Shown: positions 13,295 to 30,358, counted from the stretch's first letter. The stretch is DNA of 33,690 nucleotides from Akkermansia sp. (GCA_043785945.1 JAYVWQ010000078.1:1-33690); one strand, 5' to 3'. Program-made: numbers and translations. Notes: generated by a model from the sequence alone, not told the origin.

Positions 13295-14245
13295 ATGGGC
13301 TTCGAGCGTGAAAAATTACGCGCGCGCATGGCTGAACTGGCTGCGGCAGGCGTCCTCGTCGGGACGTCCTCCTGGAAATATGAAGGCTGGCTCGGGCAGC
13401 TCTACACTTCCGACCGCTACCAATACCGGGGCAAGCTCGCGGTGAGCCGGTTTGAAAAGCTGTGCCTCGCGGAATATGCCGAGGTCTTCAAGACCGTGTG
13501 TGTGGATGCGGCCTACTACAGTTTCCCGCGCCGCGAATATCTGCACGGCCTCAGCGACCAGGTGCCGGATGATTTTCAATTCGGATTCAAGGTCACTGAC
13601 ACCATCACGACCAAGAAATTTCCGAACCTTGCCCGCTTCGGCGCGAAGGCCGGACAGAAGAACGCGGACTTCCTCAATGCCGATTTGTTCGCCACCGCCT
13701 TCCTCAAGCCGTGCGAGGACATTCGCGGCAAGGTCGGGGTGCTCATGCTGGAGTTCTCTCGCTTCTGGCCCACGGATTACGAGCACGGGCGCGATTTCCT
13801 CACGGACCTCGATGCGTTCCTCGGCAAGCTGCCGCCGGGTTGGCCCTACGCCATTGAGATGCGGAACAAGAACTGGCTGGTGCCGGATTACTTCGCGTGC
13901 CTGGCCCGGCATGGCGTGACGCACGTTTTCAACTCCTGGGAGGCGATGCCAGCGGTGAGCGAACAGATGGCGCTGGCCGGCAGCGTGACCAATCCCGCTC
14001 TCGTGGCCGCGCGTTTCCTGCTCAAGCCCGGCCGCAAATACGAGGACGCGGTGAAAACCTTCCAGCCGTACGACCGCACCCAAGAAGTGAACGACGAAGC
14101 CCGCAAGGCCGGGAGAACATTGATTCGTGAGGGGCAGAGTGCCGCTAAGAAACGCAAGACGCTCATCTTCGTGAACAACCGGCTGGAGGGCAACGCGCTG
14201 AACACCATTGCTGCGATGGTGGCGGAAGGTCAGTTGGAGCGTTGA
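13295..14245 (+). CDS. DUF72 (YecE/UPF0759) family protein
   Basis: The GTSSWKYEGWLGQLY motif lies near the N-terminus and the family pattern runs throughout (..AEYAEVFKTVCVDAAYYSFP..FKV....T...). The start is uncertain, at ATG 13295 or 13328. The ORF-track start at 13202 adds an implausible leader. Confidence 0.85.
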   Translation: MGFEREKLRARMAELAAAGVLVGTSSWKYEGWLGQLYTSDRYQYRGKLAVSRFEKLCLAEYAEVFKTVCVDAAYYSFPRREYLHGLSDQVPDDFQFGFKVTDTITTKKFPNLARFGAKAGQKNADFLNADLFATAFLKPCEDIRGKVGVLMLEFSRFWPTDYEHGRDFLTDLDAFLGKLPPGWPYAIEMRNKNWLVPDYFACLARHGVTHVFNSWEAMPAVSEQMALAGSVTNPALVAARFLLKPGRKYEDAVKTFQPYDRTQEVNDEARKAGRTLIREGQSAAKKRKTLIFVNNRLEGNALNTIAAMVAEGQLER

Positions 14246-17900: not shown

Positions 17901-19267
17901 CCAGCGGCGGCGCGCGCGCCGTGCATCACATCGAGTCGCCCGCCATGATCAACCTCTGCCGCATGACCAACGTGCGGGAGATCGATGGCATCATTGCCAT
18001 CGTCTCCGTCATTCGTCCCGGCGCAGCGAATGAGTCCAAGAAACTTTCCTTCACCCGGCGTTATCAGGGCATGGAACCGGTTCACTATCCGCACCCCTCG
18101 CTGGAGCCGTGCTTGCGCAGCACCTTCGGACTGGTGGTCTATGAGGAACACATCCTGCAAATCTGCGAAGCCTTCGCCGGTCTGCCCGCCGGCCGCGCGG
18201 ATGTCCTGCGCCGGGCGCTGGTGAAACAGAAGCGCGCCGTCGTCGCCGAGATTGCCTTGGAGTTTGATGCGAGCGCCCGAGCGCGCGGACACGACGAGGC
18301 GAAGATTGCCGAAGTGTGGGAACTGGTCACGGGCTTCAACGGCTACGCTTTCAACAAGGCGCACTCCACGGCCTACGGGGTCGAGGCTTATCAGGCCGCG
18401 TGGCTGAAACGCTATCACCCGGCCGAGTTCATGGCCGGTGTGCTGACCAACGGCAAAGGCTTTTATCATCCGCTCGTCTATGTGCTCGAATGTCATCGGC
18501 TCGGCCTGAAGTTCCTGCCGGCGTCGGTCAACGAGCCGGGGCCGTCCTTCGTGCCGCATGGCCCGGCCATCCGCGTGCCGTTGACCCGCGTGAAGGGATT
18601 GACCACGCGCACCACGGATCGCCTCGTCGCCGCGCGGTTGGAAGGCGCGTTCACTTCGCTACGCGATTTTTTTCACCGCGTTGCGCCCACAGGCGAAGAA
18701 CTGGAGGCCATGATCCGTGCCGGAGCTTTCGATGAGTTCGGAGACGCACGCACGCGGCAGTTCTGGCAGGCGCAGCATCTGTTGAAGACTTTCGCGGGCA
18801 CCGCCGAGCCGGGCCAGGCATGGCTGCTGCCCCCACCGGGCTTGGAACAACTGCCCGGCCTTCCGCTCAATGAGCCGACGCGGCTGGAACGCCTGCAATC
18901 AGAAACGGAATTGTTCGGCTTCGCCGTCAGCGGCCATCCGCTCGAACTGTTCCCCGATGTGGCGTGGGACACATATTGCCCGGTCAATCGTCTCGGTCAG
19001 TTCATTGGTGAGACGGTCACAACTTGCGGCCTGGTGGTGGAACAACGCACGCATCATCAAGCCACGGGCGAGCCAATGAAATTCATGTCCATCGCCGACC
19101 GCACGGGCATCGTGGAAACAGAAATGTTCGCCGACAGCTACCGCAGCCACGCGCTCGCCACTGTCCGCTATCCGGTGCTGGAAGTGACGGCGACCGTCGA
19201 GCCATTCGAGAATGGACGCGGCTTTTCGTTGCGGATCATCAGGGCCGGAGAACCTAGGAAGAAGTAA
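14954..19267 (+). CDS. dnaE2: Single-ORF fusion: DinB-like Y-family DNA polymerase (aa 1 to about 350) + linker + DnaE2 error-prone Pol III alpha-like polymerase (aa about 421-1437)
   Basis: Y-family part: IVHLDADAFFAACEQ, SIDEGYCDLT (acidic catalytic residues present), NKLISSVASKFNKP and LPGVGPKT, plus a little-finger region. DnaE2 part: PHP domain FAPLRMHSHYSFLDS..VALTDTGNLHGAVEF, palm LPDIDIDFPHDRKDDV, KMDILAQGGL, and C-terminal OB fold (TVTTCGLVVEQR..MKFMSIADRTG). No stop or frame change lies between the parts. Confidence 0.85.
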   Translation: MDSKPPRSIVHLDADAFFAACEQAADAKLRGQPVAVGGTARGIIASASYEARKFGVFTPMPTVRARKLCPKLIVLSGDYERYEWFSDTMFGYCLDFTPDVEQTSIDEGYCDLTANRTKSAVVIAQIIRKAITQRLKITVSEGVGSNKLISSVASKFNKPAAFYEVRPGSERAFLSPLPVKWLPGVGPKTSLRLNAAGLGRIEQIAATPLDMLELVLGSQAATIRQFAHGLDDRLLVPKQARQKTFSKQETFGADITDEEYAEAVLRRMADELFADVRAEGRTVRTLNVRVRYNDMGEDQLSESLAEPTDLETDIYARLHTMLRKAWKRRVSLRLVSLKLSNLYDGRFRSELPLEVSAQRQEARGKLAGVIDELRRVHGHSALLRGHDFRLRTPPRAALEEVPKTAPRRLSIIIRPAKVTTFAPLRMHSHYSFLDSVLSPTALVELARQHHLPAVALTDTGNLHGAVEFVQAAQKAGIKPIVGVELPVEGGSLLLYVESARGYHQLCRLLSRHAERSAHDGDESSVANQQRRPFRRSELEGGTDGLLAAGDDAGWAELFPQRFYRLVTSRQTPNDFPAVAAPAVRYALPGDRQKYDIVQSIRTLTLLRETHPEKHADGRFHFRPPAELLGACGSHPEWLHHTLEIAERCHFDFPFGKPQFPDFHPPDGSTARAFLRRLVMDGLRSRYRERAAQFAPQVEEELNIIAAVGYESYFLMVWSILQDCRARGIEWITRGSAADSLVCYCLRISGVCPVRFDLYFKRFLNPERMALHKLPDIDIDFPHDRKDDVVDLIFARYGAETCAVVGGFSTFQARSAFAECAKVLGVGERDVRKFTERFPWGFGGGWVPDETAPKAGAALVELLQASPETRDLPVGEEPYRTALEMATVLDGRPRYPKMHPCGVVLSCQPMHELTPTFISNKRRATTHYDMDGVEEIGLVKMDILAQGGLAAMRDAKDALARRGLIVDLETLEPWDDPEVWEMIASGGARAVHHIESPAMINLCRMTNVREIDGIIAIVSVIRPGAANESKKLSFTRRYQGMEPVHYPHPSLEPCLRSTFGLVVYEEHILQICEAFAGLPAGRADVLRRALVKQKRAVVAEIALEFDASARARGHDEAKIAEVWELVTGFNGYAFNKAHSTAYGVEAYQAAWLKRYHPAEFMAGVLTNGKGFYHPLVYVLECHRLGLKFLPASVNEPGPSFVPHGPAIRVPLTRVKGLTTRTTDRLVAARLEGAFTSLRDFFHRVAPTGEELEAMIRAGAFDEFGDARTRQFWQAQHLLKTFAGTAEPGQAWLLPPPGLEQLPGLPLNEPTRLERLQSETELFGFAVSGHPLELFPDVAWDTYCPVNRLGQFIGETVTTCGLVVEQRTHHQATGEPMKFMSIADRTGIVETEMFADSYRSHALATVRYPVLEVTATVEPFENGRGFSLRIIRAGEPRKK

Positions 19268-19268
19268 C

Positions 19269-19616
19269 ATGGCTGTCGGTCAACTCTGGCTCTTTCCGCC
19301 GCCCCGACCTCTCGTCGAACGACTGGGTGAGGAGTTCTTTCGCACCCTGCCCACTGCGCCCGGCGTCTATCTCATGTGCGGCGAGCGCGAAGGCGTTCTT
19401 TACGTGGGCAAGGCGCGCAATCTGCGCAAGCGCCTCTCCAGCTACCGGGTCGCGAATCCCGAACGCCTCCCGCGTCGCATCATCCGCCTGCTGTATCAAG
19501 TTCGCCGCATCGAATTGGATGTGTGTGCCACGGAAGCCGCCGCACGGCACCGGGAGGAGGAATTGATCGGTGTCCTGCAACCGCGCTTCAATCGGGCTGG
19601 CGTGGTGTGGCCGTGA
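19269..19616 (+). CDS. Stand-alone GIY-YIG nuclease-domain protein (UvrC N-terminal / Cho-like), 115 aa
   Basis: The ATG lies 1 nt after the dnaE2 TAA (19265-19267). PGVYLMCGEREGVLYVGKARNLRKRLSSY closely matches the UvrC GIY-YIG signature. The downstream EEELIGVLQPRFNRAG supplies the conserved Glu and Asn. Confidence 0.8.
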   Translation: MAVGQLWLFPPPRPLVERLGEEFFRTLPTAPGVYLMCGEREGVLYVGKARNLRKRLSSYRVANPERLPRRIIRLLYQVRRIELDVCATEAAARHREEELIGVLQPRFNRAGVVWP

Positions 19617-19801: not shown

Positions 19802-21208
19802 ATGGAAATTCGCTTCTCATGCCCTGGCTGTTCACAACATCTTTCGGTTTCGCCGCGAGCAGCAGGACAAGCGGTTGAGTGTCCATCGTGCGGCCAGACT
19901 ATGACGGTTCCTTCTGCTTCGCCCGAACCGCCCTCGCTGGTGCCGACTCCCGAATCAGCTTCTGATCACACCGAAACTTTCGTGGTGCCAGCTCATGCTC
20001 CACCTCCCCCGCGCACGGATCAAGGCGATCTGACTTGTCCGGTCTGCTGGTTGAAATTTGACGCTGGAGACGTGATGCACGTCGCGGTGCATGACTCCCT
20101 GCGCGGCGATCCGGTGCTGGGGGAGGACGCACCACAACGCTTCCACGCCACGCGCTTCAACGACGCCAGCCAGGCGCTTGATGCGATGGGGCTGCCGTGC
20201 CTCGACGTGGCTTGTCCGCATTGTCGGCGCAAGTTTCCTCCCGGCTTTCTGGATGTGCCGTATCACATCATCTCATTGGTCGGTGATCAGAGCGCGGGCA
20301 AGTCGTATTACCTCAGCGTGATGGCGAAGGTATTCCCGGCGAGTCTGTACCGGCATTTCGGCGTCACCTGCCAGGACGCGGACCCGACCGGCAACGCACC
20401 GCTCAACGACATGAAAAGCGTGCTCTTTAGCGCGCAATCGCCGGAACAGGCACGTCTTGCCAAGACGCAACTCGAAGGCGCGATGTACGAACGCCTGCCG
20501 CGTCACGGTCGCATGGTCGCGCTGCCCAAACCTTTTGTTTATTCCTTGCGCGGCAATCACGGCGGCGACTCGGCGTGTTCTCTGATTTTTTACGACAACG
20601 CTGGCGAGCATTTTCAACCGGGCCGCGACGTAACGGAACAACCCGGTGCGCTGCATGTGGCGAGCGCGGCAGGTATTCTGTTTCTGTTTGATCCGTTCAA
20701 CAGCCCGGAGTTTCGCAAGTGCATCGGACGGACGGATGATCCGCAGATGGAAAAGCCCGCCATCGATCAACAAGACGTGATTCTTTCGGAAATGCGGTCG
20801 CGCATTCAAAAGATTCGGAACTTGCGCAGTGGGGAAAAAATCCCAACACCGCTCGCCGTGCTCGTGGGCAAGTGCGATGCGTGGCTGCACTTGCTCGAAG
20901 GCGGACCGCTGGCGCATCCGCTCGTGAACGGTGCGCTCTCACTCGACATCATTCGCACCAATTCGCGGCGCATCCGGGAATTTCTCGTTTCCGCCTGCCC
21001 AACGGTCGTGGCGAACGCCGAGGCGTTGAGCGAACATGTTGTCTTTTTCGCCGTCAGTGCGTTCGGTCACACGCCTGTAAAAATTGCGGGCAACGCCTAC
21101 GTGCCCGATCCCGCGCAGTTGGCTCCGGTGCAAGTGGAAGTCCCGCCGCTCTGGTTGTTGTCGCAAATTTCGCCGGGCCTCGTGCGGGCCACGGAAACCG
21201 TCGCCTGA
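19802..21208 (+). CDS. Double zinc-ribbon + Ras-like (TRAFAC) GTPase, 468 aa
   Basis: I prefer the start MEIRFSCPGC at 19802. The ORF-track extension back to 19376 overlaps the GIY-YIG gene and is Arg/Pro-rich junk. ZnR1 is CPGC-x16-CPSC. ZnR2 is CPVC...CPHC. G1 is GDQSAGKS (20282..20305), G3 is DNAGE (20594..20608), G4-like is VGKCD (20866..20877) and G5-like is VSAFG. Confidence 0.85.
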   Translation: MEIRFSCPGCSQHLSVSPRAAGQAVECPSCGQTMTVPSASPEPPSLVPTPESASDHTETFVVPAHAPPPPRTDQGDLTCPVCWLKFDAGDVMHVAVHDSLRGDPVLGEDAPQRFHATRFNDASQALDAMGLPCLDVACPHCRRKFPPGFLDVPYHIISLVGDQSAGKSYYLSVMAKVFPASLYRHFGVTCQDADPTGNAPLNDMKSVLFSAQSPEQARLAKTQLEGAMYERLPRHGRMVALPKPFVYSLRGNHGGDSACSLIFYDNAGEHFQPGRDVTEQPGALHVASAAGILFLFDPFNSPEFRKCIGRTDDPQMEKPAIDQQDVILSEMRSRIQKIRNLRSGEKIPTPLAVLVGKCDAWLHLLEGGPLAHPLVNGALSLDIIRTNSRRIREFLVSACPTVVANAEALSEHVVFFAVSAFGHTPVKIAGNAYVPDPAQLAPVQVEVPPLWLLSQISPGLVRATETVA

Positions 21209-21209
21209 C

Positions 21210-23699
21210 ATGCCGCAGCAACTCATCTACACCAGCGCACCGCGCGGACTGGCGGCAGGCCGGGCCGGCTTTTGCACGGTGGCGATGAGTGTGGGATTGC
21301 GTGAGGCGCTGGCGCTGAAACTGGAGCAGATCAGTTACTTCGATCATGGCGCGATGGGCGCGGGTGAGCAGGTGATTCGCGCCTTTCGTCTCATAGACCT
21401 TCGGGGCACCCGTTATTTTGTCCTCTCACGCGTGCAGGATTGCGGACTCGATTTCACGCAACGAACTAATTTCATCGCGCACCATCTGATCTTCACGCCG
21501 GAAGAAGTTTCTGACGTTGCCAGGCCACCGGAAATCTTCCGGCAATGGAACGGCTGGCTGACTCGCTGGGATGGTGAGCCAAGCGTTTTATCGGATAATG
21601 ACTGGGGCAACCTCTATGCAATTCCCAGCCGCCAGCCGCCGGCCCGCGCCTGGGCGCGACTCGCTGGCGATGCGATGAACGCCTTTGCTCTCCTTGAAAC
21701 GTCCGGTCTCCTGTTGAACGTCGAGGGCGTGGCGGATGACGCCGTGCTCGATTTGTTTGCCGAGTCCTTGGCGCTGCTGGAAGCGCGCGAGGCCCGCGAC
21801 TTCCGTGCCGCCGCCTGGCAGTTCACTTTCACCACGGCTTTACAGAATCAGGATGCCCCGGCGGAGTTTCGCTGGCGCTGCGTGCGCGGCGATGGCGGAG
21901 GGTTGACCAACCTAGGCTCGGCGCGCGTTCAGCCGCTGCTGCAACTTCGTCCGGCCCGCGTCAGCGTGGGCGAAGCGTCGTTCGCACGCTCCGGCTATCA
22001 GCCGCCGAAGATTCTCGCGGAGCCGAAAGACGCTTACGCAAGTGAAGGCGAAAGCGTGACATTGCGCGTGGACGTGAGCGGCCTGCCAACGCCGAATCGT
22101 TTCCAGTGGTTCAGTCTCTCCCGCACTGGCGCGGAAGAACCCCTCGCCGACGCGAGCAGCGCCGAGTTGAGCATCCGTCCGGCGCGCGGGATGAATCGTT
22201 ACTGCGTCAAGATTTCCAATCTGCGTGGTGACACCGTGATGAGCCGCGTGGCGCAAGTCTCCGTGGACGCGGCCGTGAGAGTGCCCGGTCTTCAAGCTCC
22301 TCGCACCACGTCCGCACCGGCGGGCGTTCACCAAACTGCAAGGGCCGCAAAAGAGTGGACGGCTGATCCGTTGGAAGCGGAGACATTTAGGCTCCAAGTG
22401 GAAGAACGCGAACGGAAGCGAAGCCGAAATCGGATGCTTTTAGTAACTGTCGCGGTTTTTGCTCTGGTTGGCATCGTGGTTGGATTCTTGGTGGTGAAAC
22501 GTCCTGACCTTTTTTTGAATCGGCACCGTGCCGATGCTTCGCAATTGGAGGGGAGCGACGAAACTAACAAGACCAATGAGAGAACACCACCTGTCACATC
22601 TCCTGCAAAACCCATACGCGACATTGGGGCCAACGAGCGCGTGGCCGAGTCGCAAGATGCCTTGAAGGAGAAGGTGTTTCTTGCGCTGTTGACAGCGAAG
22701 AGCGACATCCCGATTCGTGGAGCACTTGCCGCGAAGCTGCGGCGCTTTTTCGTCGGAACGACGAACGGATCGCCAATGTCCGTGGCAAGCAGCGATAAGC
22801 CAGATCGGGCGCTACTGCCGAAGGAGAAGGAACAAGAAATCAAAGCAGATCGGAAGATTGACATCAAAATCAGCACCAATTCGCTGCATCTGACGACGAA
22901 CAATACTGACGTGGTTTTGTCAGCTACCGTCTTAAAGAGTCCAGTCCTCCTTCGATTTGTCGATAAGTCTTCACCAATCGGGGAGTCCTTTCAGTTACTT
23001 GTGTGGCCGAATAATCCCGCCGTCCCGGCGGAATTGACGTTCGTTAATGCCCACCTCCAACTCATGGATGGGTGGCCGCAAATCCTTGCCGCGACTGAAG
23101 GTGAACATTTTTTCTTCAACGGGAATCACCCCGACATGGACACGGTTAAAAGCAACAAAATCGAACGCAGCTACGCAATCGAATACAAGCCCGCTTTTGA
23201 GACGAGACGGCGAGATGCAGCCAAAATGTTGACGACATACGAGTCTTGGCGCGACGCAACTGAGAAAATGGTTCGGCTTCGCGACAAGGTCGGCCTTGGG
23301 AAAACCAGCGCAGATTCATTGAATGGCATCTGGGACGAAGTTCAGGCTGTCTGCATCGAAGCTGTCGGAGCGACGCGGCGCGATTTCAATTTCAGCAATC
23401 CTCAAAACGACAATCGAAAAAGCGACGCGCAACGAATTGTGCAGGAATGGCGCTCTTTACGAAAACCAGACTTGGAATTGGCTGAGGCAGCTTTGAGTGG
23501 CCTCACCATTGATGCACTCGAACAAATCGTCGGCAACGGACAGCAATCCATGCGAACGCTTGATGGAGCGCGGCAGACTCTGAAAGAAAGAATCGACAGT
23601 GCGAAAGCGCAACAATCATTCTCCGCAGCCAAGATAACTTGCCAAATCCATTACGGGAAACCCGACGGGCAAGTGCTTGTGCAATTCAAAGTCAAATGA
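21210..23699 (+). CDS. Membrane-anchored protein: GTPase-associated-protein (GAP1-N2)-like N-terminal domain + Ig (I-set-like) domain + TM helix + about 390-aa C-terminal domain of unknown fold
   Basis: The ATG lies 1 nt after the preceding TGA. The N-terminus MPQQLIYTSAPRGLAAGRAGFCTVAMS resembles the QLHYTS..G..GFQ..A.S signature I recall for GAP1-type proteins. The Ig-like segment is PPKILAEPKDAYASEGESVTLRVDVSGLPTPNRFQWF...YCVKISNLRGDTVMSRVAQVSV (about 22002..22270). The TM helix is MLLVTVAVFALVGIVVGFLVV (about 22433..22495). The C-terminal half is visibly more A/T-rich than its surroundings. Confidence 0.8.
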   Translation: MPQQLIYTSAPRGLAAGRAGFCTVAMSVGLREALALKLEQISYFDHGAMGAGEQVIRAFRLIDLRGTRYFVLSRVQDCGLDFTQRTNFIAHHLIFTPEEVSDVARPPEIFRQWNGWLTRWDGEPSVLSDNDWGNLYAIPSRQPPARAWARLAGDAMNAFALLETSGLLLNVEGVADDAVLDLFAESLALLEAREARDFRAAAWQFTFTTALQNQDAPAEFRWRCVRGDGGGLTNLGSARVQPLLQLRPARVSVGEASFARSGYQPPKILAEPKDAYASEGESVTLRVDVSGLPTPNRFQWFSLSRTGAEEPLADASSAELSIRPARGMNRYCVKISNLRGDTVMSRVAQVSVDAAVRVPGLQAPRTTSAPAGVHQTARAAKEWTADPLEAETFRLQVEERERKRSRNRMLLVTVAVFALVGIVVGFLVVKRPDLFLNRHRADASQLEGSDETNKTNERTPPVTSPAKPIRDIGANERVAESQDALKEKVFLALLTAKSDIPIRGALAAKLRRFFVGTTNGSPMSVASSDKPDRALLPKEKEQEIKADRKIDIKISTNSLHLTTNNTDVVLSATVLKSPVLLRFVDKSSPIGESFQLLVWPNNPAVPAELTFVNAHLQLMDGWPQILAATEGEHFFFNGNHPDMDTVKSNKIERSYAIEYKPAFETRRRDAAKMLTTYESWRDATEKMVRLRDKVGLGKTSADSLNGIWDEVQAVCIEAVGATRRDFNFSNPQNDNRKSDAQRIVQEWRSLRKPDLELAEAALSGLTIDALEQIVGNGQQSMRTLDGARQTLKERIDSAKAQQSFSAAKITCQIHYGKPDGQVLVQFKVK

Positions 23700-26677
23700 A
23701 CCTTCTCGAAACCAAACGGCTGGTGCGGAAGATCGGGGAACTGCTCCACGAGCAGGGTGACGCGGCGATGGCCCCGAAGCTGGCGCAAGATTTTGTTGCC
23801 GCGTGTCGCGCCGTGATCGTGCGCTTGAACCAGTGCGAGGCGATGATTTCCTCCAACGAGGGGATGCAGGCGCTGCAACTCGCTGAGACGTCGCCGAATT
23901 TGATGGACCTCCTGGCTTCGCTGGAATTTCGCGAAGCAGCGGCTTGGCGAAAGTATTGCCGTGAGCACGAACTTCCGGTTGCGGAGACATTCGACGAACG
24001 CGCCGTCCACAAGCTGAACGAGTGCTACGCGCGCGGCATCAACACGGACCATCCCCTGTATCGTGATTACCGTCGCGCGATGGTGCTCAAGGATGACGAG
24101 GCTGCATTGACCGTTTTGCGCACCATCGGACGGATCAATACCGCCGATGACAATGCGCGTTCGGAACTGGCGCGGCTCGACCGCAAGGTTTTGAACGAGC
24201 GACTTGCCGCGCTGGGGCAATTGCTCGACAGCGGTTCTCCTGTAGAGATTGCGCGTGAGGTTAGCGACATCGAATCAAGCGCGTTTCAAAACAGTCCGGC
24301 GGGCGAGATTTGGCGCAGCGCGCAAGCGATTCGCTGCGACGTGTTGCTCGACGCCATTGCGGTGGACCGGCAGAGCAACGATTGGCGCAGCGCGCTTGAC
24401 CGTTTGGATTTCATAGCGGGATTGCAACGCGATTGGGATTTTTCTCTCGATGCGGCGGCGCAATCACGCTTCTCGGAACTGTGGGCCTGGGCGGAGAACG
24501 AACGATACAAGGATGAGCAGGATCGGCTTTTCAAGTCGCTGCTGGTGCAACTGCGCCACCTCGTCGATCTGAGCGAGGAAAAAGAAATCGCCGCGCGGGA
24601 AATCGAATTGCCGGAGTTGAAGGCCGATTTGGAAGAATTGCAGAAGAAGTGGCGAGCCATCGAACAGTTCGCGCGTCCGGTGCCGGACGATCTGACGGCG
24701 CGCTATCGCAAACGCGTGGCACTGGTGCAGGCGGAGGTTTCGCGGCGGGTACGGCTGCGGGTCCGCAACATCGCCATCGGTGTGGCAGCCGCATTGCTGT
24801 TGATCGCGGGCACAACTTGGACGTTTCAACAGCATCTCAAGGGCAAGGACTTCGTTCACCAACTTCAAGCGGCACGCGAGCAACGGCTGGCACGAACGGC
24901 GGAAAAACTCGTGGCGCACACGCGCGACACGGATCGTGGACTCTCGGGCAAGAGCGGCGTGCCGGCTGCGCTCGCGGAAACAGAAACTTTTCTCAAACGC
25001 GAACTCGGCCTGCTGGAAAGTTTCCAAGGAGCAACGCGCGAACTGCCATCCGACCTCGCGGGCTTGACCGGGGCGGAGCAATTGAAGGCCACTCATCAGC
25101 GGCTGGCGAATGTCACGAATCTGCTGGCGCAACTCGCGCCCGACTTGCGGGCGGAAAGCGAGCCGAAGCTGAACGCCTGGCGCGCCGCCTGGACGCGGCA
25201 TTTGTTCGAGCGCAGCACGGAATTGAACAAAAGCTTTGAGAGCGCATTGCGGCAAGCCGAGCAAAACGCGGCGCGGATGAATTTCTCCCTGTCCACCGCT
25301 GCCGCACGCGCGGACGTGGCGTCGGTGGGAGCGGAGTTGTCAAAACTCGCGGACGAGGAACAGGCGTTCACCGGAGCGTTGCGCTGGCGCAGTGAGTTGC
25401 TGCAACGGTCCAAGGAACTGCGCGACAAGCACAGCGCGTTTGCGGGTGAGTTGGGAAAGTTTGACGCCGCGTGGTCCGGGGTCGCGCGGGCGCGCAACAC
25501 CACCGACTTCAACGCATCCGTGGCCGCGCTGTCGCGCTCTGAATTTACCACCGCGCCAGAAGTGCGAGCCGCCGGTTCGGTGCGTGACCTGGAGTTTTCG
25601 GACGAGTCGCTGTTGCGCTCGTTGCTCTGCGGCAATGATGTCGGCCTCTGGAACCACATCAGCGGCTCCGCCCCGATGGATTTTATGCCGAAGGCCGTGA
25701 TGCCCGCCGAGAAAATGAAACTGCTCGAACTGAAAAACGAAGACGCGATCAACCCGGAGCATTACTGCTACTCACTGCGCCTCACCGTGGAGCCGCCGTC
25801 CTCGGTGACGTGGATCACGGAAGGCAAACTCAACAACACCGAACAGATTTGGAGAAAAATACGGGCTTTTGTACCCACCGCTGCCACAACTTCATGCGAA
25901 TTTCGTATGGCTGAATACGGGTGGTTCGATGGTCGCTACGTTTTACCTTCAAAGCAGCAACTTCAAGACGTTCGGCTGATCGGGCCATGCACGGAGGCAA
26001 AATCCTTCTACGCACTCCGGCTGCCGGAACTGATGGCGCTGCACAACGACACCTACCAATTTCCACTGCTCAAGAAGCTGGATGAACTCAAGACGGGGCG
26101 CGAGGACTCGCCTCTTTTCCGGGCCTACCTTTTCCTACGGCTGTGCGAATTGATGGACTTGCAGCCGGAAGGTTGGGGCGTGCCATTCGCTCCTTCATTG
26201 GCGGCGGATCGCGAGCGGCTGGTGAGCGCGGGCGGGTCAGAAGTGCGCAGCGGCGACTGGTACGTGCCAACACGCGGGCAGAGGCTGGCTACGCCGTTGC
26301 AGAAAGTTTTCGAGCAAGCCGCCAGCATCTCGTACTGGGAACAGGCGCAAACGTCGGCCAAAGTTTTTCGGGCCACACTCGCCGCCGGTGTCCGCTACGT
26401 GGGGTACGTGGACGCGGACGGCAAATTGCGGGCGGGCGAAACGACCACGGGCGAAATTTGGGGCTGGGAATCTGGCACGCGCAAACCAGCCGTCCTCGCG
26501 GTTAGCACACCTTCCGGTTGGAAATCCATTTCGGCACCGCTTCCCTGCTCGCCGCTGTTCGCATTCGCGGAAGACCGCGCCGCGCTGCTGGTCAAGGCTG
26601 GCGTGAAGCCTGGCGACACGATGATGAATTCCGCGCTGCCCGTCGTGTTCCGCACGGTCGCTCCTAAAACTAAATGA
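23696..26677 (+). CDS. Large (993 aa) predominantly alpha-helical / coiled-coil protein with one TM helix
   Basis: ATGA overlap with the upstream gene (23696..23699). Start at MNLLETKRLVRKIGELL. TM helix IAIGVAAALLLIAGTTWTF (about 24769..24825). Composition is helical and heptad-like throughout. I recognise no catalytic motif. Confidence 0.8.
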   Translation: MNLLETKRLVRKIGELLHEQGDAAMAPKLAQDFVAACRAVIVRLNQCEAMISSNEGMQALQLAETSPNLMDLLASLEFREAAAWRKYCREHELPVAETFDERAVHKLNECYARGINTDHPLYRDYRRAMVLKDDEAALTVLRTIGRINTADDNARSELARLDRKVLNERLAALGQLLDSGSPVEIAREVSDIESSAFQNSPAGEIWRSAQAIRCDVLLDAIAVDRQSNDWRSALDRLDFIAGLQRDWDFSLDAAAQSRFSELWAWAENERYKDEQDRLFKSLLVQLRHLVDLSEEKEIAAREIELPELKADLEELQKKWRAIEQFARPVPDDLTARYRKRVALVQAEVSRRVRLRVRNIAIGVAAALLLIAGTTWTFQQHLKGKDFVHQLQAAREQRLARTAEKLVAHTRDTDRGLSGKSGVPAALAETETFLKRELGLLESFQGATRELPSDLAGLTGAEQLKATHQRLANVTNLLAQLAPDLRAESEPKLNAWRAAWTRHLFERSTELNKSFESALRQAEQNAARMNFSLSTAAARADVASVGAELSKLADEEQAFTGALRWRSELLQRSKELRDKHSAFAGELGKFDAAWSGVARARNTTDFNASVAALSRSEFTTAPEVRAAGSVRDLEFSDESLLRSLLCGNDVGLWNHISGSAPMDFMPKAVMPAEKMKLLELKNEDAINPEHYCYSLRLTVEPPSSVTWITEGKLNNTEQIWRKIRAFVPTAATTSCEFRMAEYGWFDGRYVLPSKQQLQDVRLIGPCTEAKSFYALRLPELMALHNDTYQFPLLKKLDELKTGREDSPLFRAYLFLRLCELMDLQPEGWGVPFAPSLAADRERLVSAGGSEVRSGDWYVPTRGQRLATPLQKVFEQAASISYWEQAQTSAKVFRATLAAGVRYVGYVDADGKLRAGETTTGEIWGWESGTRKPAVLAVSTPSGWKSISAPLPCSPLFAFAEDRAALLVKAGVKPGDTMMNSALPVVFRTVAPKTK

Positions 26678-27474
26678 ATCCAAACCCGCCACCGCCCTTT
26701 TCATCGGAGCCGAGTTACGACGGCCCGCTGCGATTGAGTTGGCGTGGTCGCGAGGAGGGGCCGTTCCTGTGGGCGGAGATTGAGCGTCGGCTGACTGCGA
26801 ATGAGATCGGCCTGTTCCATGAAGTGCAAGTGGACGGCGCATGGATGACGCTGCGCGCCTTCCTTGAATTGCGTGAAGCCGCACAACTAGAGGCAAAGGC
26901 GCGACGGGAAGAAGCCGAGCGTGTTGCCAATGTCCACGCGGCGCGTGCCGCCGAGGACCGCGCCGCGCGGCATCAGTCCGAAGTGCTCGCGGAGGAAAAG
27001 CGCAAGAACGATTTGATGGCGGCGGCGCTTGGCCTGCCACAAGGGAAGAAAAGTCCGATGTCACTCCCACGCTTGCTGCGGAACATCGCGCTTGTCCTGG
27101 TGCTGGTGTGTGGCGTATTTGCCGCGTATCAGGCGTATCGCATTCCCGAACTCACCGCGCTCTCGGCCCGCGCCCGCGAAGTCGCCGCGAAATTCAACTA
27201 CGTCGATTCGCCGACGGCGAGCCGCCTGGGCATCAATCTTTTCGCGTCGCTCTTTGGTGATGCGCGTGATGTGCGCGACGCCATTGCGGAAGTTTCGCAG
27301 ACCATCGGCGACAAAGAGAAGCTTCAGCAACGCTATCAATGGATGGCGACGCAATTGAGCGCGGAGTTGGAGACGGCGGGCATCGCGCGCAACTGGGCGC
27401 TGCTCCTGGGTTGCTGCTTCGCCATCGCTGCGATTTGTTTTCACTTCGGAGCACGCAACGACCAAACCGTATGA
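26674..27474 (+). CDS. GYF_2 (DUF4339)-like domain protein with coiled coil and two TM helices
   Basis: ATGA overlap at 26674..26677. The GYF-like region is LRLSWRGREEGPFLWAEIERRLTANEIGLFHEVQVDGAWMTLRAFLE. A charged coil follows. TM helices are LLRNIALVLVLVCGVFAAYQAY and NWALLLGCCFAIAAICFHFG. Confidence 0.8.
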   Translation: MNPNPPPPFSSEPSYDGPLRLSWRGREEGPFLWAEIERRLTANEIGLFHEVQVDGAWMTLRAFLELREAAQLEAKARREEAERVANVHAARAAEDRAARHQSEVLAEEKRKNDLMAAALGLPQGKKSPMSLPRLLRNIALVLVLVCGVFAAYQAYRIPELTALSARAREVAAKFNYVDSPTASRLGINLFASLFGDARDVRDAIAEVSQTIGDKEKLQQRYQWMATQLSAELETAGIARNWALLLGCCFAIAAICFHFGARNDQTV

Positions 27475-28358
27475 ACACTGCCGCCACCTCAGCACCTTTG
27501 CCCGCCGCCGCCCCTGAACTTGCGTTGGCGTGGACACAACAAGATTACGAGAACCGCATCGGTTTTCGCGGCGGGCGCTACATGAGCGTGAATCATCTGC
27601 TCGCGTTTCTTGCGGCGCTGCTCGGCACGGTGGCGGCGTTCGCGCTCGCGGTCTTTGTCCTCAAACCGATTTCTTTCACCGCGCCCGTCGGCGAAATGTT
27701 CCTTCGGCCTGGCAACCAGTTCACCGTTATTCCGGCGACTGTATTTTTCTTCTGGGGTGCGGCCGTGCTTTTCATCAAACACCACAAATTGAAGCTTCAG
27801 GAACGGTCGCTCGCGCTGTCGCCGGTGCCGGCGGAACCGGAGTTTGTGCTGACTGAGGCCACGGCGAATTCGGTGCTCTCACGGCTGCACGCAATTGTGG
27901 ATCACCCGCGCCATTTTGTTTTGCTCAACCGCATCGACCGCGCGTTGTCGAACTTGCGGAACATAGGACAGGTGAACGACGTGTCCTCCATCTTGCGCGC
28001 CCAGGCGGAGAACGATGAGGATCACGTCGCGTCGAGTTACACGCTGGTCAACGGGCTGGTCTGGGCCATCCCCGTGCTGGGCTTCATCGGCACCGTGCAG
28101 GGCTTGAGCATGGCCATCGGGAAGTTCGGCCAGACGCTCCAAACGTCGGGCGACATCTCGGCCATCCGCCAGTCGTTGCAAGGCGTGACCGGCGGACTGG
28201 CGACGGCCTTCGAGACAACGCTCGTGGCGCTGGTCTTCGCGCTGATCCTGCAACTCTGGATCACCTTTCAACAACGGCGTGAGATGGCGTTCCTCGATGA
28301 GTGCAATGACTACTGCCATTCGCATGTCGTGGCGAAACTTCGTCTGACCAATCGCTGA
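27471..28358 (+). CDS. MotA/TolQ/ExbB-family proton (ion) channel protein
   Basis: ATGA overlap at 27471..27474. Multiple TM helices are present. The family signature near the C-terminus is LVWAIPVLGFIGTVQGLSMAI ... VTGGLATAFETTLVALVFALILQLW. Confidence 0.88.
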   Translation: MNTAATSAPLPAAAPELALAWTQQDYENRIGFRGGRYMSVNHLLAFLAALLGTVAAFALAVFVLKPISFTAPVGEMFLRPGNQFTVIPATVFFFWGAAVLFIKHHKLKLQERSLALSPVPAEPEFVLTEATANSVLSRLHAIVDHPRHFVLLNRIDRALSNLRNIGQVNDVSSILRAQAENDEDHVASSYTLVNGLVWAIPVLGFIGTVQGLSMAIGKFGQTLQTSGDISAIRQSLQGVTGGLATAFETTLVALVFALILQLWITFQQRREMAFLDECNDYCHSHVVAKLRLTNR

Positions 28359-28361
28359 CTC

Positions 28362-29444
28362 ATGGCGAGCCGTCTGCGCAGAAATAACTGGGCGCGAATC
28401 AGTTTCTTCGCGTTCCAGGACATTATCACTGCGGTCAGCGGCATCCTGATTCTGATCACGCTCATCCTCGCGACTGATTTGGATCGCACCACGAGCGCAC
28501 GTTCCACCGAGCTTCAACCCGAATTGGAAATGCGGCTGGCCCAATTGCTGGAAGAACAAACGGCACTGGAACTGTTGAACCAGCAATTGCGGCAGTCGCT
28601 CACCGGAGCGCGCAACGCACCGGGACTCGAACAACTCACGAATGAAATTCGTGACCTGAAACAGCGTCTCGACGCGATGCAGGGCAAATTTACGAATTTG
28701 CTGGCCGTTGCCACCGCGCAACGGGCCGCTCAAGCGGAACGCGACGCCCGTCTGGGATTGGCGGCTTTCAGCGCCGACATCGACGCGCTGAACAAGGAAA
28801 ACACAAAACTGGCCGCACTGGTCGCCGATGCACGGCGCAAAATGGACCGCGCAGAATCCGAAGTGAAGCGCGCCGAGAACATCGTGCTCAAAAGCCGTGC
28901 GCGATCTGGAATGTGGGTGCTTCCTGATGACCGCAGCACAACAAAAGAACCGTTGCTCGTGACGATCAGTGGCAGCGAAGTAATTGCGGAGCGTTTCGAC
29001 CAACCGGACAAACAACTGAGATGGGCGAGCGGCGGGGCGTCTGCGGACTTTCGCCGTTTCCTCGCGGTCGTGAACAAGGACAATCAGTACATCGTGTTCT
29101 TCGTGCGCCCGTCCGGCATCCGGCTTTTTGAGCAGTTGTCTGACCTCGCCCGCGCGCAGCAAATCGACATCGGGTTCGACGCCGTTGAAGAAAAGCAAGA
29201 AGTGCATTTCTCCAAGCCGCCGCCGATTGAGGCAGACCCCGATACCACAACACCCGTTCGTCCGCCGGTTGGTCCCGGAACGATGTCGGTCGGAGATTCT
29301 TCACCTGCAACACCCATCAAATCTGCGACGGCTGAACCGGCGACTGTGCCGGCGAGCAAGCCGCCGGCTGTTGCTGCGCCCGCCGTCCCCTCTGCCCCTG
29401 CTTCATGGTGGCGGCGTCTTCTAAAATCCTTGGGACTCGCATGA
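28362..29444 (+). CDS. ExbD/TolR/MotB-like single-pass stator partner 1 (TM Asp, coiled coil, globular C-terminal domain, Pro-rich tail)
   Basis: Starts 3 nt after the MotA-like stop. The N-terminus RISFFAFQDIITAVSGILILITLILA has an Asp codon at 28419..28421. A long coiled coil follows. The C-terminal domain is ..YIVFFVRPSGIRLFEQLSDLARAQQIDIGFD.. followed by a P/A-rich tail. Confidence 0.75.
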   Translation: MASRLRRNNWARISFFAFQDIITAVSGILILITLILATDLDRTTSARSTELQPELEMRLAQLLEEQTALELLNQQLRQSLTGARNAPGLEQLTNEIRDLKQRLDAMQGKFTNLLAVATAQRAAQAERDARLGLAAFSADIDALNKENTKLAALVADARRKMDRAESEVKRAENIVLKSRARSGMWVLPDDRSTTKEPLLVTISGSEVIAERFDQPDKQLRWASGGASADFRRFLAVVNKDNQYIVFFVRPSGIRLFEQLSDLARAQQIDIGFDAVEEKQEVHFSKPPPIEADPDTTTPVRPPVGPGTMSVGDSSPATPIKSATAEPATVPASKPPAVAAPAVPSAPASWWRRLLKSLGLA

Positions 29445-30358
29445 GCTTTCGCCGCCAATCACGGGGCGACAGCCTCGACCTGCTGCTCGACACGATGTGC
29501 AACACGTTCGGTGGCATCATCATGCTCGCGGTGCTGGTGACGTTGCTTTCCAAGCAGGAGCGCAGTGGACGCGCTACCGTCGATTCCGAGGAAATGATGC
29601 GTCGGAGAATCAGCGAGGGTGAACTGACTTTGAAGGAAAGCCGCGCGGCGAACGCCAACCTCGTCACCGATGCGGGCGACTCTGACACCAAGAAGCGTTT
29701 GGAAGCCGTAGCGGAAAAAAAGGCGCTGCGATCCATGCTCGAAGCCTCGGCGCGCGACGCCGAGGCTGCAAATGCAAGCCAGCCGCTCGCCGCTCGGGAT
29801 GCCGCCGCGCGTATGGCGCAGTTGCGCGAGGAAATGACGAAAGCCATTGCCACGCGCACTGATTTGAGCAACCAGTTGTCCACGGCGGAGATCAACACGC
29901 GCCGACTCACCGCGCGGGCCAGTGATTTGGCAAAGCAGGCCGCCGCATTGCAGAGCGCGTCCGTGCAAAAGCTGCGTTTGCCGAAAGAACATTTCACCGG
30001 CAAGTCGGTCGTGAACGTGATTATCCAATACGGCAAGGTCTATCCGGTGCATACCACGTCCAGAGCAAGAAACACGGCACACGTTGAATTCACCAAGAAT
30101 GGAAATGGCGTGACTGTTCGGCCCCTGCCGGAAGCTGGCCTCGATGTACGGAGCAATGATTGGAAGAACTGGCTGAACCGGCTCGCGGCCAACCGGGAAT
30201 ACATTGGGTTTTATGTGTTCGAGGACTCATTCGGCGCTTTCAACGCAGCCAAGAAGGCCACAGTGGACGCAGGATTTGATTATGGATGGGAACCGGAACA
30301 ATTGGCCTCCGGTCCCCTGTCATTCGGCGCAGTGGGTTCCCAGCCAAAAGCTCAGTAA
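29441..30358 (+). CDS. ExbD/TolR/MotB-like single-pass stator partner 2 (paralog of the preceding gene)
   Basis: ATGA overlap at 29441..29444. The N-terminus SLDLLLDTMCNTFGGIIMLAVLVTLL has an Asp codon at 29489..29491. A coiled coil follows. The C-terminal domain ..EYIGFYVFEDSFGAFNAAKKATVDAGFDYGWE.. has the same pattern as the upstream paralog. Confidence 0.75.
   Translation: MSFRRQSRGDSLDLLLDTMCNTFGGIIMLAVLVTLLSKQERSGRATVDSEEMMRRRISEGELTLKESRAANANLVTDAGDSDTKKRLEAVAEKKALRSMLEASARDAEAANASQPLAARDAAARMAQLREEMTKAIATRTDLSNQLSTAEINTRRLTARASDLAKQAAALQSASVQKLRLPKEHFTGKSVVNVIIQYGKVYPVHTTSRARNTAHVEFTKNGNGVTVRPLPEAGLDVRSNDWKNWLNRLAANREYIGFYVFEDSFGAFNAAKKATVDAGFDYGWEPEQLASGPLSFGAVGSQPKAQ

What the first reader, a model, noticed from the sequence alone, without database searches (positions are those of the whole stretch)
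19802..21208. GTPase with two N-terminal zinc ribbons, the second one split by a roughly 60-residue insert
CPGC-x16-CPSC forms a compact ribbon at residues 7-30. A second CxxC pair (CPVC and CPHC) brackets about 60 residues just before the P-loop GDQSAGKS. The G-domain keeps DxxGE and a Ras/Rab-like (N)KCD box, here VGKCD with the Asn replaced by Gly. It therefore looks like an active, possibly specificity-shifted, nucleotide switch rather than a degenerate one. Zn ribbons fused to a small GTPase suggest nucleic-acid or partner sensing upstream of the switch.
Basis: partly seen in the sequence, partly recalled or inferred. Interest (0 to 1): 0.6.

Follow-up and report, generated by a model that had tools for sequence, protein, structure and literature searches.

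The report
Zinc-ribbon GTPase of GAP1 system

Summary
Window 19802-21208 (+) encodes a 468-aa protein with these features:
- a compact Cys4 ribbon (C7/C10/C27/C30);
- a Pro-rich linker;
- a second Cys4 set (C79/C82/C138/C141) bracketing 55 residues;
- a G domain with intact G1-G5 (GDQSAGKS, K221-T222, DNAGE, GKCD, SAFG).

It is a member of the DO-GTPase2 family (Kaur, Burroughs, Iyer, Aravind, eLife 2020). [quoted passage not shown] The gene 1 nt downstream carries GAP1-N2 (81 bits).

- The "split" second ribbon is the best-conserved part of the family. Its 55-residue spacer is fixed, it lies exactly 19 residues before the P-loop in 70/70 relatives, and it has no PDB analogue.
- The first ribbon is a swappable accessory, replaced by FHA or GYF_2 in relatives. 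This favours partner recruitment over nucleic-acid sensing.
- Gly in G4 is the family consensus, and the guanine-reading Asp is retained.

The gene heads a seven-gene block that is collinear across Verrucomicrobiota. Its distribution is patchy (0 of 11 congeners).

The scan has reported this same kind before on other DNA. I found no experimental study of the family in the papers searched.

The parts
19802..21208 (+). CDS of the DO-GTPase2-type GTPase (468 aa, P0001); stop TGA at 21206-21208
   Evidence: More than 1500 homologues. The start is supported by 88 close homologues with the first Cys at residue 7.
19808..19906 (+). First zinc ribbon (residues 3-35; C7, C10, C27, C30): a variable N-terminal accessory module
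   Evidence: The model shows four short strands at pLDDT 93-96. Pfam gives weak Zn_ribbon_4, LysW and DUF7560 hits below cut-off. It is present in 103/118 of the close clade but only about 20/70 diverse relatives.
19910..20029 (+). Pro-rich flexible linker (residues 37-76)
   Evidence: pLDDT is about 56. Mean consensus frequency is 0.16. ZnR-type relatives have linkers of about 42 aa with about 20% Pro.
20030..20239 (+). Family-specific Cys4 module (residues 77-146; C79, C82, C138, C141, plus C133): the 'second ribbon with insert'
   Evidence: Cys are kept in 68-69/70, and the spacer is 55 aa. C141 lies exactly 19 residues before the P-loop Gly in 70/70, and mean consensus frequency is 0.60. 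Folded alone it reaches pLDDT 93.8. It has no PDB match. The same fold appears in DO-GTPase2-bearing Atlas clusters, plus three without a common Pfam family.
20261..21187 (+). TRAFAC-type G domain (residues 154-462) with inserts
   Evidence: Whole-protein model pLDDT is 93. VIA-align gives Z 13.8 to YcjX 6nz4_A (242 residues aligned) and Z 12-13.7 to Rag/Rab GTPases. Pfam DO-GTPase2 scores 23.1 bits.
20282..20305 (+). G1 / P-loop, G161-DQSAGK-S168
   Evidence: G161, G166 and K167 are invariant; S/T168 is kept in 70/70.
20462..20467 (+). Putative G2 / switch I, K221-T222
   Evidence: T222 is kept in 70/70 and K221 in 67/70. Assignment as G2 is an inference from position and conservation.
20594..20608 (+). 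G3 / Walker B with the family's hallmark Glu, D265-N-A-G-E269
   Evidence: D is kept in 69/70, G in 70/70 and E in 67/70. [quoted passage not shown]
20867..20878 (+). G4, G356-K-C-D359 (the [NT]KxD equivalent)
   Evidence: K357 is kept in 70/70 and D359 in 69/70. The first position reads G39, S10, A5, T5, P5, N3.
21056..21067 (+). Putative G5, S419-A-F-G422
   Evidence: S is kept in 68/70 and G in 69/70. Assignment as G5 is an inference.
21210..23699 (+). Partner gene: GAP1-N2 protein (829 aa) with an Ig-like domain, a TM helix and a variable C-terminal part. It starts 1 nt after the GTPase stop.
   Evidence: Pfam GAP1-N2 81.1 bits, E 1.1e-22; Ig_3 31.2 bits. Junction sequence. It is adjacent in 76/80 related loci. 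The N-terminal ~225 residues are conserved.
23696..30358 (+). Rest of the conserved block: a ~1000-aa helical protein, a 266-aa TM protein, a MotA/ExbB-like channel, and two coiled-coil proteins. Exact starts were not re-examined here.
   Evidence: tblastn collinearity in related loci: 60, 36, 37, 35 and 34 of 80, most misses being on short contigs. MotA_ExbB scores 36.4 bits.

Best explanation
The gene encodes a cytoplasmic DO-GTPase2-family GTPase. It is the switch component of a GAP1-N2-type 'GTPase-centric' system.

Shown:
- A TRAFAC-type G domain with all five G motifs under strong conservation, including the family's hallmark Glu after DxxG.
- A family-specific Cys4 module rigidly joined to the P-loop strand.
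- A separate N-terminal Cys4 ribbon on a flexible Pro-rich linker.
- A GAP1-N2 gene 1 nt downstream.
- A collinear seven-gene block ending in a MotA/ExbB-like channel.

Inferred:
- The protein binds and hydrolyses GTP. Guanine specificity is probably retained through K357 and D359.
- The Cys4 module binds one Zn as a structural part of the core and forms a conserved interaction surface, most likely for GAP1-N2 or for a second GTPase copy.
- The first ribbon is an exchangeable protein-recruitment adaptor. It is functionally equivalent to the FHA or GYF_2 domains found in its place in relatives.
- The GTP/GDP state is passed through the membrane-anchored GAP1 protein to the membrane components of the operon.
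- Whether the output is anti-invader conflict, as proposed in 2020, or another envelope process remains open.
For: Family identity:
- Pfam DO-GTPase2 scores 23.1 bits on this protein.
- 52/70 relatives hit it.
- Relatives 50-57% identical pass the cut-off: P0126 38.4, P0135 32.4, P0140 27.9 and P0123 27.8 bits against 27.
- GAP1-N2 lies next door at 81 bits, 1 nt away, and in 76/80 related loci.
- PMC7159879 describes exactly this: a TRAFAC GTPase with Glu in Walker B, GAP1 downstream, and 'two N-terminal ZnRs' in GAP1-N2 systems of verrucomicrobia and other phyla.

Active switch:
- G161, G166, K167, T222, G268 and K357 are invariant.
- D265 is kept in 69/70, E269 in 67/70, D359 in 69/70 and S419 in 68/70.

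Fold:
- Model pLDDT is 93 and pTM 0.84.
- VIA-align Z 13.8 to YcjX, and Z 12-13.7 to Rag/Rab GTPases.

Cys4 module as core:
- The 55-aa spacer is fixed, and it lies 19 residues before the P-loop in 70/70.
- It has the highest conservation of any region, 0.60 against 0.48 for the G domain.
- In the model each CPxC sits between short strands, like a zinc knuckle.
- The same fold turns up mainly in DO-GTPase2-bearing Atlas clusters.

First ribbon as adaptor:
- The same slot holds GYF_2 (10 relatives), FHA (6) or other domains.
- The linker is disordered and Pro-rich.

Accessory, mobile character:
- Found in 35/301 genomes of the phylum sample.
- Found in 0/11 congeners and 5 of 47 other families of the order.
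- The best relative in that sample, at 72% identity, is in another family.
Against: - The protein's own Pfam score is below the gathering cut-off (23.1 against 27).
- There is only one GTPase copy in the operon and in the 81%-complete genome, so the 'double' feature is absent. The paper reports it in only 38% of systems.
- No separate FNIII-repeat protein was detected. Only one Ig-like domain was found, inside GAP1.
- The operon content is constant across the phylum and shows no recognisable toxin-type effector. That fits the 'highly variable effector' picture of a conflict system poorly.
- No PADLOC model matches the GTPase or GAP1.
- Zinc binding, GTP hydrolysis and GAP1 contact are all untested. 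I could not read Cys-Cys distances from the model because coordinates are not exposed.
Confidence: 0.8

Rival explanations
1. Same protein family, different job. The GTPase is an MglA-like regulator of an ion-driven envelope machine (the MotA/ExbB-like channel with its coiled-coil partners). The machine would serve motility, surface transport or envelope maintenance, not defence against invaders.
For: - The seven-gene block is collinear and constant across many Verrucomicrobiota loci.
- The MotA-like gene is its best-conserved member, at 50-76% identity.
- No toxin-type or variable effector domain was found, and no PADLOC hit for the GTPase or GAP1.
- MglA is among the structural matches, Z 11.3.
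Against: - Distribution is patchy: 0 of 11 congeners, 35 of 301 phylum genomes, and 8 of 22 species in one genus. This shows an accessory, probably transferred element, though accessory machines can also be patchy.
- MglA scores no better than dozens of other small GTPases.
- Relatives carry TIR, kinase or FGE-sulfatase fusions typical of conflict systems.
Confidence: 0.3
2. One reading: the two zinc ribbons bind nucleic acid (for example invader DNA or RNA) and gate the GTPase.
For: Many zinc ribbons bind nucleic acids (general knowledge). JGI names some homologues 'RNA polymerase subunit RPC12/RpoP' from the ribbon alone.
Against: - The first ribbon is replaced by the peptide-binding domains FHA or GYF_2 in relatives.
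- Both elements are on average net acidic: the module averages -2.4 (-5 here) and the ribbon -1.5 (0 here).
- The module is welded to the G domain at fixed spacing rather than exposed on a linker.
- No nucleic-acid-binding fold was matched.
Confidence: 0.08
3. The G4 change (Gly for Asn) has shifted nucleotide specificity away from GTP, so the protein is an ATPase or XTPase.
For: Asn of NKxD is missing here and in most relatives (N in 3/70). Some TRAFAC members with altered G4 do use other nucleotides (general knowledge).
Against: - The Lys and the Asp that reads the guanine base are kept (K357 70/70, D359 69/70).
- An SA[FL]G G5-like motif is also kept.
- The change is family-wide, so it says nothing special about this protein.
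Confidence: 0.1
4. It is a degenerate pseudo-GTPase, or the true start lies downstream of the ribbons.
For: No clear Shine-Dalgarno sequence or sigma-70-type promoter was seen before 19802.
Against: - All G motifs are conserved.
- 88 close homologues start the same way, with the first Cys at residue 7.
- tblastn alignments begin at query residue 1 in many related loci.
Confidence: 0.02

Closest known systems
[quoted passage not shown]
   Same: - TRAFAC G domain with Glu after DxxG.
- Two N-terminal Cys4 zinc-ribbon elements.
- GAP1-N2 gene immediately downstream.
- Found in Verrucomicrobiota.
- Membrane-associated partners.
- Relatives carry FHA, GYF, TIR or kinase fusions.
   Different: - Single GTPase copy.
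- No separate FNIII-repeat protein detected.
- The downstream partners are a MotA/ExbB-like channel and coiled-coil proteins. The words MotA, ExbB and TolQ do not occur in the paper's main text, and MotA, ExbB, TolQ and ExbD do not occur in its one held supplement.
- The protein's own Pfam score is just below the cut-off.
YcjX (DUF463, PDB 6nz4), a bacterial stress-linked GTPase
   Same: It is the best structural match to the G domain: Z 13.8, rmsd 4.0, and 242 residues aligned, more than for any small GTPase.
   Different: - There is no sequence relationship beyond the P-loop (hhalign probability 10%).
- PF04317 does not appear among this protein's Pfam hits.
- No YcjX residues align to the Cys4 module, since the match starts at model residue 152.
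- The Z score is tied with Rag/Rab matches.
Ras/Rab/Rag-type small GTPases and MglA
   Same: They share the core G-domain fold (Z 11-13.7, about 160-190 residues aligned) and G1/G3 logic as a nucleotide switch.
   Different: - About 310-residue G domain with long inserts.
- G4 lacks Asn.
- Glu replaces the Ras Gln after DxxG.
- N-terminal Zn modules.
- Sequence identity of only 11-18%.
Classical zinc ribbons (for example Pfam Zn_ribbon_4, LysW ribbon)
   Same: The first ribbon has CPxC-x16-CPxC with four short strands. In the second module each CPxC also sits at a hairpin turn in the model.
   Different: - The second module carries a fixed, conserved 55-residue beta-rich spacer.
- It has no significant PDB match (best Z 2.1).
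- Pfam ribbon scores for the first ribbon are below cut-off (20 against 30.3 bits).

Membership tests
DO-GTPase2 / GAP1-N2-type GTPase-centric system | TRAFAC-type G domain with conserved nucleotide-binding motifs | tested here: met
   G1-G5 are conserved in 70 relatives. The model matches GTPases at Z 11-13.8.
DO-GTPase2 / GAP1-N2-type GTPase-centric system | Conserved glutamate in the Walker B motif (DxxGE) | tested here: met
   D265-N-A-G-E269; E is kept in 67/70. The feature is stated in PMC7159879.
DO-GTPase2 / GAP1-N2-type GTPase-centric system | GAP1 gene directly downstream, of the matching N2 type | tested here: met
   GAP1-N2 scores 81.1 bits against a cut-off of 24, and starts 1 nt after the stop. 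It is adjacent in 76/80 loci.
DO-GTPase2 / GAP1-N2-type GTPase-centric system | Two N-terminal zinc ribbons (usual in GAP1-N2 systems) | tested here: met
   Two Cys4 sets are present. Both are confidently modelled.
DO-GTPase2 / GAP1-N2-type GTPase-centric system | Score over Pfam PF19993 gathering cut-off (27 bits) | tested here: inconclusive
   This protein scores 23.1 bits. Relatives 50-57% identical score 27.8-38.4 bits, and 52/70 relatives hit at E<=1e-3.
DO-GTPase2 / GAP1-N2-type GTPase-centric system | Second paralogous GTPase ('double'; in 38% of systems, so not obligatory) | tested here: not met
   Only one full-length match was found in the 81%-complete genome. There is none in the operon.
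DO-GTPase2 / GAP1-N2-type GTPase-centric system | Associated protein with FNIII repeats | tested here: inconclusive
   There is no FNIII hit. One Ig_3 domain lies inside GAP1. Divergent beta-sandwich repeats could escape Pfam.
Ras/Rab-like small GTPases | [NT]KxD G4 motif and a compact G domain of about 170-200 aa | tested here: not met
   G4 reads GKCD. The G domain is about 310 aa with inserts.
YcjX / DUF463 | Sequence match to PF04317 or to YcjX itself | tested here: not met
   There is no PF04317 hit on P0001. hhalign against E. coli YcjX gives probability 10%, P-loop only.
MglA-type polarity GTPase | Partner MglB (roadblock/LC7) GAP and MglA-specific motifs | not tested
   Only the structural match was seen (Z 11.3). 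MglB was not searched for.

The most novel reading that the evidence does not exclude
The family-wide Cys4 module (residues 77-146) is a zinc-binding fold not yet represented among solved structures. It acts as the built-in docking or regulatory platform through which GAP1-N2 reads or sets the nucleotide state. In this Verrucomicrobiota version the switch would then gate an ion-driven MotA/ExbB-type motor. That would make the system a GTPase-controlled membrane motor of a kind not yet described.
Probability: 0.15. Interest if true: 0.6.

Novelty: new member of a known kind. Interest (0 to 1): 0.25.

Why it matters
In itself it matters little. The architecture (two zinc ribbons plus a GTPase next to GAP1-N2) was published in 2020, and the scan has met it repeatedly.

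Two points have modest value:
1. I found no biochemical or genetic study of the family in the papers searched. The alignment here gives concrete residues for a first experiment: the Cys quartet, R113, T222, E269, K357 and D359.
2. The 'second ribbon' turns out to be the most conserved and most rigidly placed part of the protein, and it has no solved analogue. That makes it the obvious target for structure determination and for mapping the GAP1 interface.

Tried and rejected
- Complex prediction of the GTPase core (72-468) with GAP1 residues 1-228 gave no verdict. It says nothing either way.
- A profile search of PDB sequences with alignment A1 gave nothing significant; the best hit was E 0.21 on the P-loop only.
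- Foldseek and VIA-align on the isolated Cys4 module gave no significant PDB match. This does not prove a new fold.
- hhalign of A1 against E. coli YcjX matched the P-loop only. I therefore dropped the idea of a specific YcjX kinship, although YcjX is the top structural row.
- PADLOC had no model for the GTPase or GAP1. The MotA-like gene gave only generic ZorA hits, so I do not call this Zorya.
- NCBIfam gave only weak LysW-ribbon hits.
- A feature search of the protein atlas with the GAP1 N-terminus gave only noise.
- Promoter and terminator scans around the gene and at the operon end were uninformative.
- The eLife supplement held as text has no MotA, ExbB, TolQ or ExbD.
- 'Housekeeping core gene of Verrucomicrobiota' was considered after seeing 392 species with a relative. 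It was rejected because of the patchy distribution.
- Cys-Cys distances in the models could not be measured because no coordinates are exposed.

Full report
**What is there**

The ORF at window 19802-21208 (+) translates to a 468-residue protein.
- C7-PG-C10, then 16 residues, then C27-PS-C30.
- P-loop G161-DQSAGK-S168, starting 19 residues after C141.
- D265-NAG-E269.
- V355-GKC-D359.

The frame is open upstream to 19376, but that stretch overlaps the GIY-YIG gene (19212-19616). The start at 19802 is the supported one. Among 118 close homologues that contain the core motif, 103 carry the first ribbon and 88 have its first Cys at residue 7. Most exceptions begin inside the ribbon and look like mis-called starts.

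**Conservation**

A word-indexed search found more than 1500 homologues. An exhaustive search of 50%-identity representatives found 2418 at E<=1e-3 and 374 at E<=1e-30. In these the conserved core begins at about query residue 72-78, which is exactly at the second CxxC.

I aligned 70 diverse relatives at 31-66% identity (A1). The results are:

| Feature | Conservation in 70 relatives |
|---|---|
| C79, C82, C138, C141 | 68-69 of 70 |
| Spacer between C82 and C138 | 55 aa in most (range 53-57) |
| Conserved residues inside the spacer | W83, F86, H97, G102, D103, R113 (invariant), F114, D127, G130, A137, P139 |
| C141 to P-loop glycine | exactly 19 residues in 70/70 |
| C133 (a fifth Cys) | 57/70 |
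| G161, G166, K167 (G1) | invariant |
| T222 | invariant; preceded by K221 in 67/70 |
| Y-D-N-A-G-E, 264-269 | 67-70/70 per position; E269 in 67/70 |
| K357 | invariant |
| D359 | 69/70 |
| S419-A-[FL]-G422 | S 68/70, G 69/70 |

Mean consensus frequency by region is 0.60 for the Cys module, 0.48 for the G domain, 0.19 for the first ribbon and 0.16 for the linker. So the 'split second ribbon' is the best-conserved and most rigidly positioned part of the protein, not a lineage-specific insertion.

The first G4 position reads G39, S10, A5, T5, P5 and N3 of 70. Gly is therefore the family norm.

**Variable N-terminus**

The first ribbon is found in only about 20 of the 70 diverse relatives. A Pfam scan of all 70 shows other domains elsewhere in these relatives:
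- GYF_2 in 10 and FHA in 6.
- TIR in 1, a protein kinase in 1 and FGE-sulfatase domains in 2.
- One relative is fused to GAP1-N2 and GAP1-M.

In relatives that lack the ribbon, the stretch before the module is about 150-290 residues long and has almost no predicted TM helices. Domain positions were not listed, so placing GYF_2 and FHA in that N-terminal slot is an inference.

In ribbon-type relatives the linker is about 42 residues with about 20% Pro. In the model it is the only low-confidence stretch (pLDDT about 56).

FHA and GYF are peptide-binding domains. Both Zn elements are on average net acidic: the module averages -2.4 (-5 here) and the ribbon -1.5 (0 here). This favours protein recruitment over nucleic-acid sensing.

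**Structure**

With A1 as input, AlphaFold2 gives mean pLDDT 93.0 and pTM 0.84.
- Foldseek against the PDB returns only generic TRAFAC GTPases at low TM: atlastin-3 (E 2.9e-6, TMq 0.31), Rab, Ran and EF-Tu.
- VIA-align against 48,161 representatives puts YcjX-GDP (6nz4_A) first, at Z 13.8, rmsd 4.0 and 242 aligned residues over model 152-459.
- That row is tied with an Asgard RagA-like GTPase (Z 13.7), Rab28 (13.0) and RagD (12.4). MglA scores 11.3.
- At sequence level YcjX shares only the P-loop (hhalign probability 10%).

Folded alone, the Cys module reaches pLDDT 93.8. It is all-beta, and each CPxC sits between short strands in the manner of zinc knuckles.
- It has no significant PDB match: best VIA Z is 2.1, and there is no Foldseek hit at E<=1e-3.
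- In the ESM Atlas the same fold (TM 0.86-0.94) appears in seven clusters. Five carry DO-GTPase2 and two have no common Pfam family. All are from Verrucomicrobiota or Planctomycetota.
- Weaker matches are one Planctomycetota cluster that also carries DO-GTPase2 and two Bacillota clusters.

I could not measure Cys-Cys distances, so the shared metal site is inferred from conservation and local geometry.

**Identity**

Pfam gives DO-GTPase2 (PF19993) at 23.1 bits, under the 27-bit cut-off. Relatives 50-57% identical pass it: P0126 38.4, P0135 32.4, P0140 27.9 and P0123 27.8 bits. In all, 52 of 70 relatives hit at E<=1e-3.

The gene that starts 1 nt after the stop (TGAcATG) carries GAP1-N2 at 81.1 bits (E 1.1e-22) plus an Ig-like domain.

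Kaur, Burroughs, Iyer and Aravind (eLife 2020, PMC7159879) defined exactly this pair:
- '60% of the DO-GTPases have 1-2 N-terminal zinc ribbons'.
[quoted passage not shown] The finding is therefore a member of a described kind. Full-text searches found only that paper and two later ones that mention the family in passing. I found no experimental study.

**Context**

Related loci from 80 species-representative genomes, almost all labelled Verrucomicrobiota, share a collinear block:

| Gene in the block | Found in related loci (of 80) |
|---|---|
| GTPase | 80 |
| GAP1-N2 | 76 |
| ~1000-aa protein | 60 |
| 266-aa TM protein | 36 |
| MotA/ExbB-like channel (50-76% identity, the best conserved) | 37 |
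| 360-aa coiled-coil protein | 35 |
| 317-aa protein | 34 |

Most misses are on short contigs. The upstream genes of this window are not conserved neighbours.

The words MotA, ExbB and TolQ are absent from the paper's main text. MotA, ExbB, TolQ and ExbD are absent from its one held supplement. That part of the operon belongs to other findings of this scan.

The genome holds a single full-length copy of the GTPase.

Distribution is patchy:
- 35 of 301 sampled genomes of the phylum.
- 8 of 22 species in one genus.
- None of 11 other species of this genome's genus, several of them at least 94% complete.
- 5 of 47 other families of the order; the best relative in that sample, at 72% identity, is in another family.

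This is an accessory, probably transferred element.

**Mechanism and rivals**

*Best reading (about 0.8 for identity and general mechanism).* This is a cytoplasmic GTP switch.
- Its invariant Cys4 module is a structural zinc site and a conserved interface.
- Its N-terminal ribbon is an exchangeable protein-recruitment adaptor.
- It acts on or through the membrane-anchored GAP1-N2 protein.

The steps beyond architecture and conservation are inference.

*Open question (rival, about 0.3).* The system may serve conflict, as proposed in 2020, or another envelope function driven by the MotA-like channel.
- For another function: the constant operon content and the lack of a recognisable toxin-type effector or any PADLOC hit for the GTPase or GAP1.
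- For conflict: the patchy distribution and the TIR or kinase fusions in relatives.

*Weaker rivals.*
- Nucleic-acid sensing, about 0.08.
- A shift in nucleotide specificity, about 0.1.
- A pseudo-GTPase or a downstream start, about 0.02.

**Verdict**

This is a typical member of the DO-GTPase2/GAP1-N2 family, which the scan has already met on other DNA (e1-2127766, e1-2127765, e1-4704334). Interest is low to moderate.

Noticed in passing
window 19802-30358; L002-L076: The seven-gene block is collinear in about 35 full-length related loci. The MotA/ExbB-like gene is more conserved (50-76% identity) than GAP1 (28-55%). The ~1000-aa protein is the most divergent, at 20-58% identity.
   Followed up: partly
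L006 (2061-4096) and L020 (11212-13788): In two related loci GAP1 is shorter: 191 aa in L020 and 583 aa in L006. It is followed directly by the two coiled-coil genes, with no hit for the ~1000-aa, 266-aa or MotA-like genes. These look like natural deletion variants of the block.
   Followed up: no
L077 (GTPase at 10001-11350) and L080 (GTPase 10001-11314, GAP1 at 13824): One Chthoniobacterales locus shows no GAP1 hit in the 2.7 kb downstream of the GTPase. One Opitutales locus has about 2.5 kb inserted between the GTPase and GAP1.
   Followed up: no
G000 contigs C284, C419, C115 (L082 251-715 +, L083 1444-3198 +, L084 1432-1977 -): Three other ORFs of the same genome contain modules 35-49% identical to the first ribbon. 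One lies at the N-terminus of a protein with Big_2 and PSCyt2 (DUF1549) domains. The ribbon is a promiscuous module in this genome.
   Followed up: partly
window 26674-27474 (P0272, residues ~18-65): By eye, the N-terminus of the 266-aa TM protein looks GYF_2-like. Pfam gives no GYF hit even at E<=5. The 2020 paper mentions GYF proteins fused to TM regions in planctomycete GAP1-N2 systems. The GTPase linker has an APPPPR stretch that could be a GYF ligand, but this is pure speculation.
   Followed up: partly
window 21210-23699: Only the first ~225 residues of GAP1 are conserved across the phylum. The Ig-like domain (residues 265-326) precedes the single TM helix. If the N-terminus is cytoplasmic, the Ig domain is cytoplasmic too and the ~400-residue variable tail is outside the membrane.
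   Followed up: no
window 14954-19616: The upstream 1437-aa polymerase fusion ORF and the GIY-YIG gene are not conserved neighbours of the GTPase in any related locus. They belong to a separate unit.
   Followed up: partly
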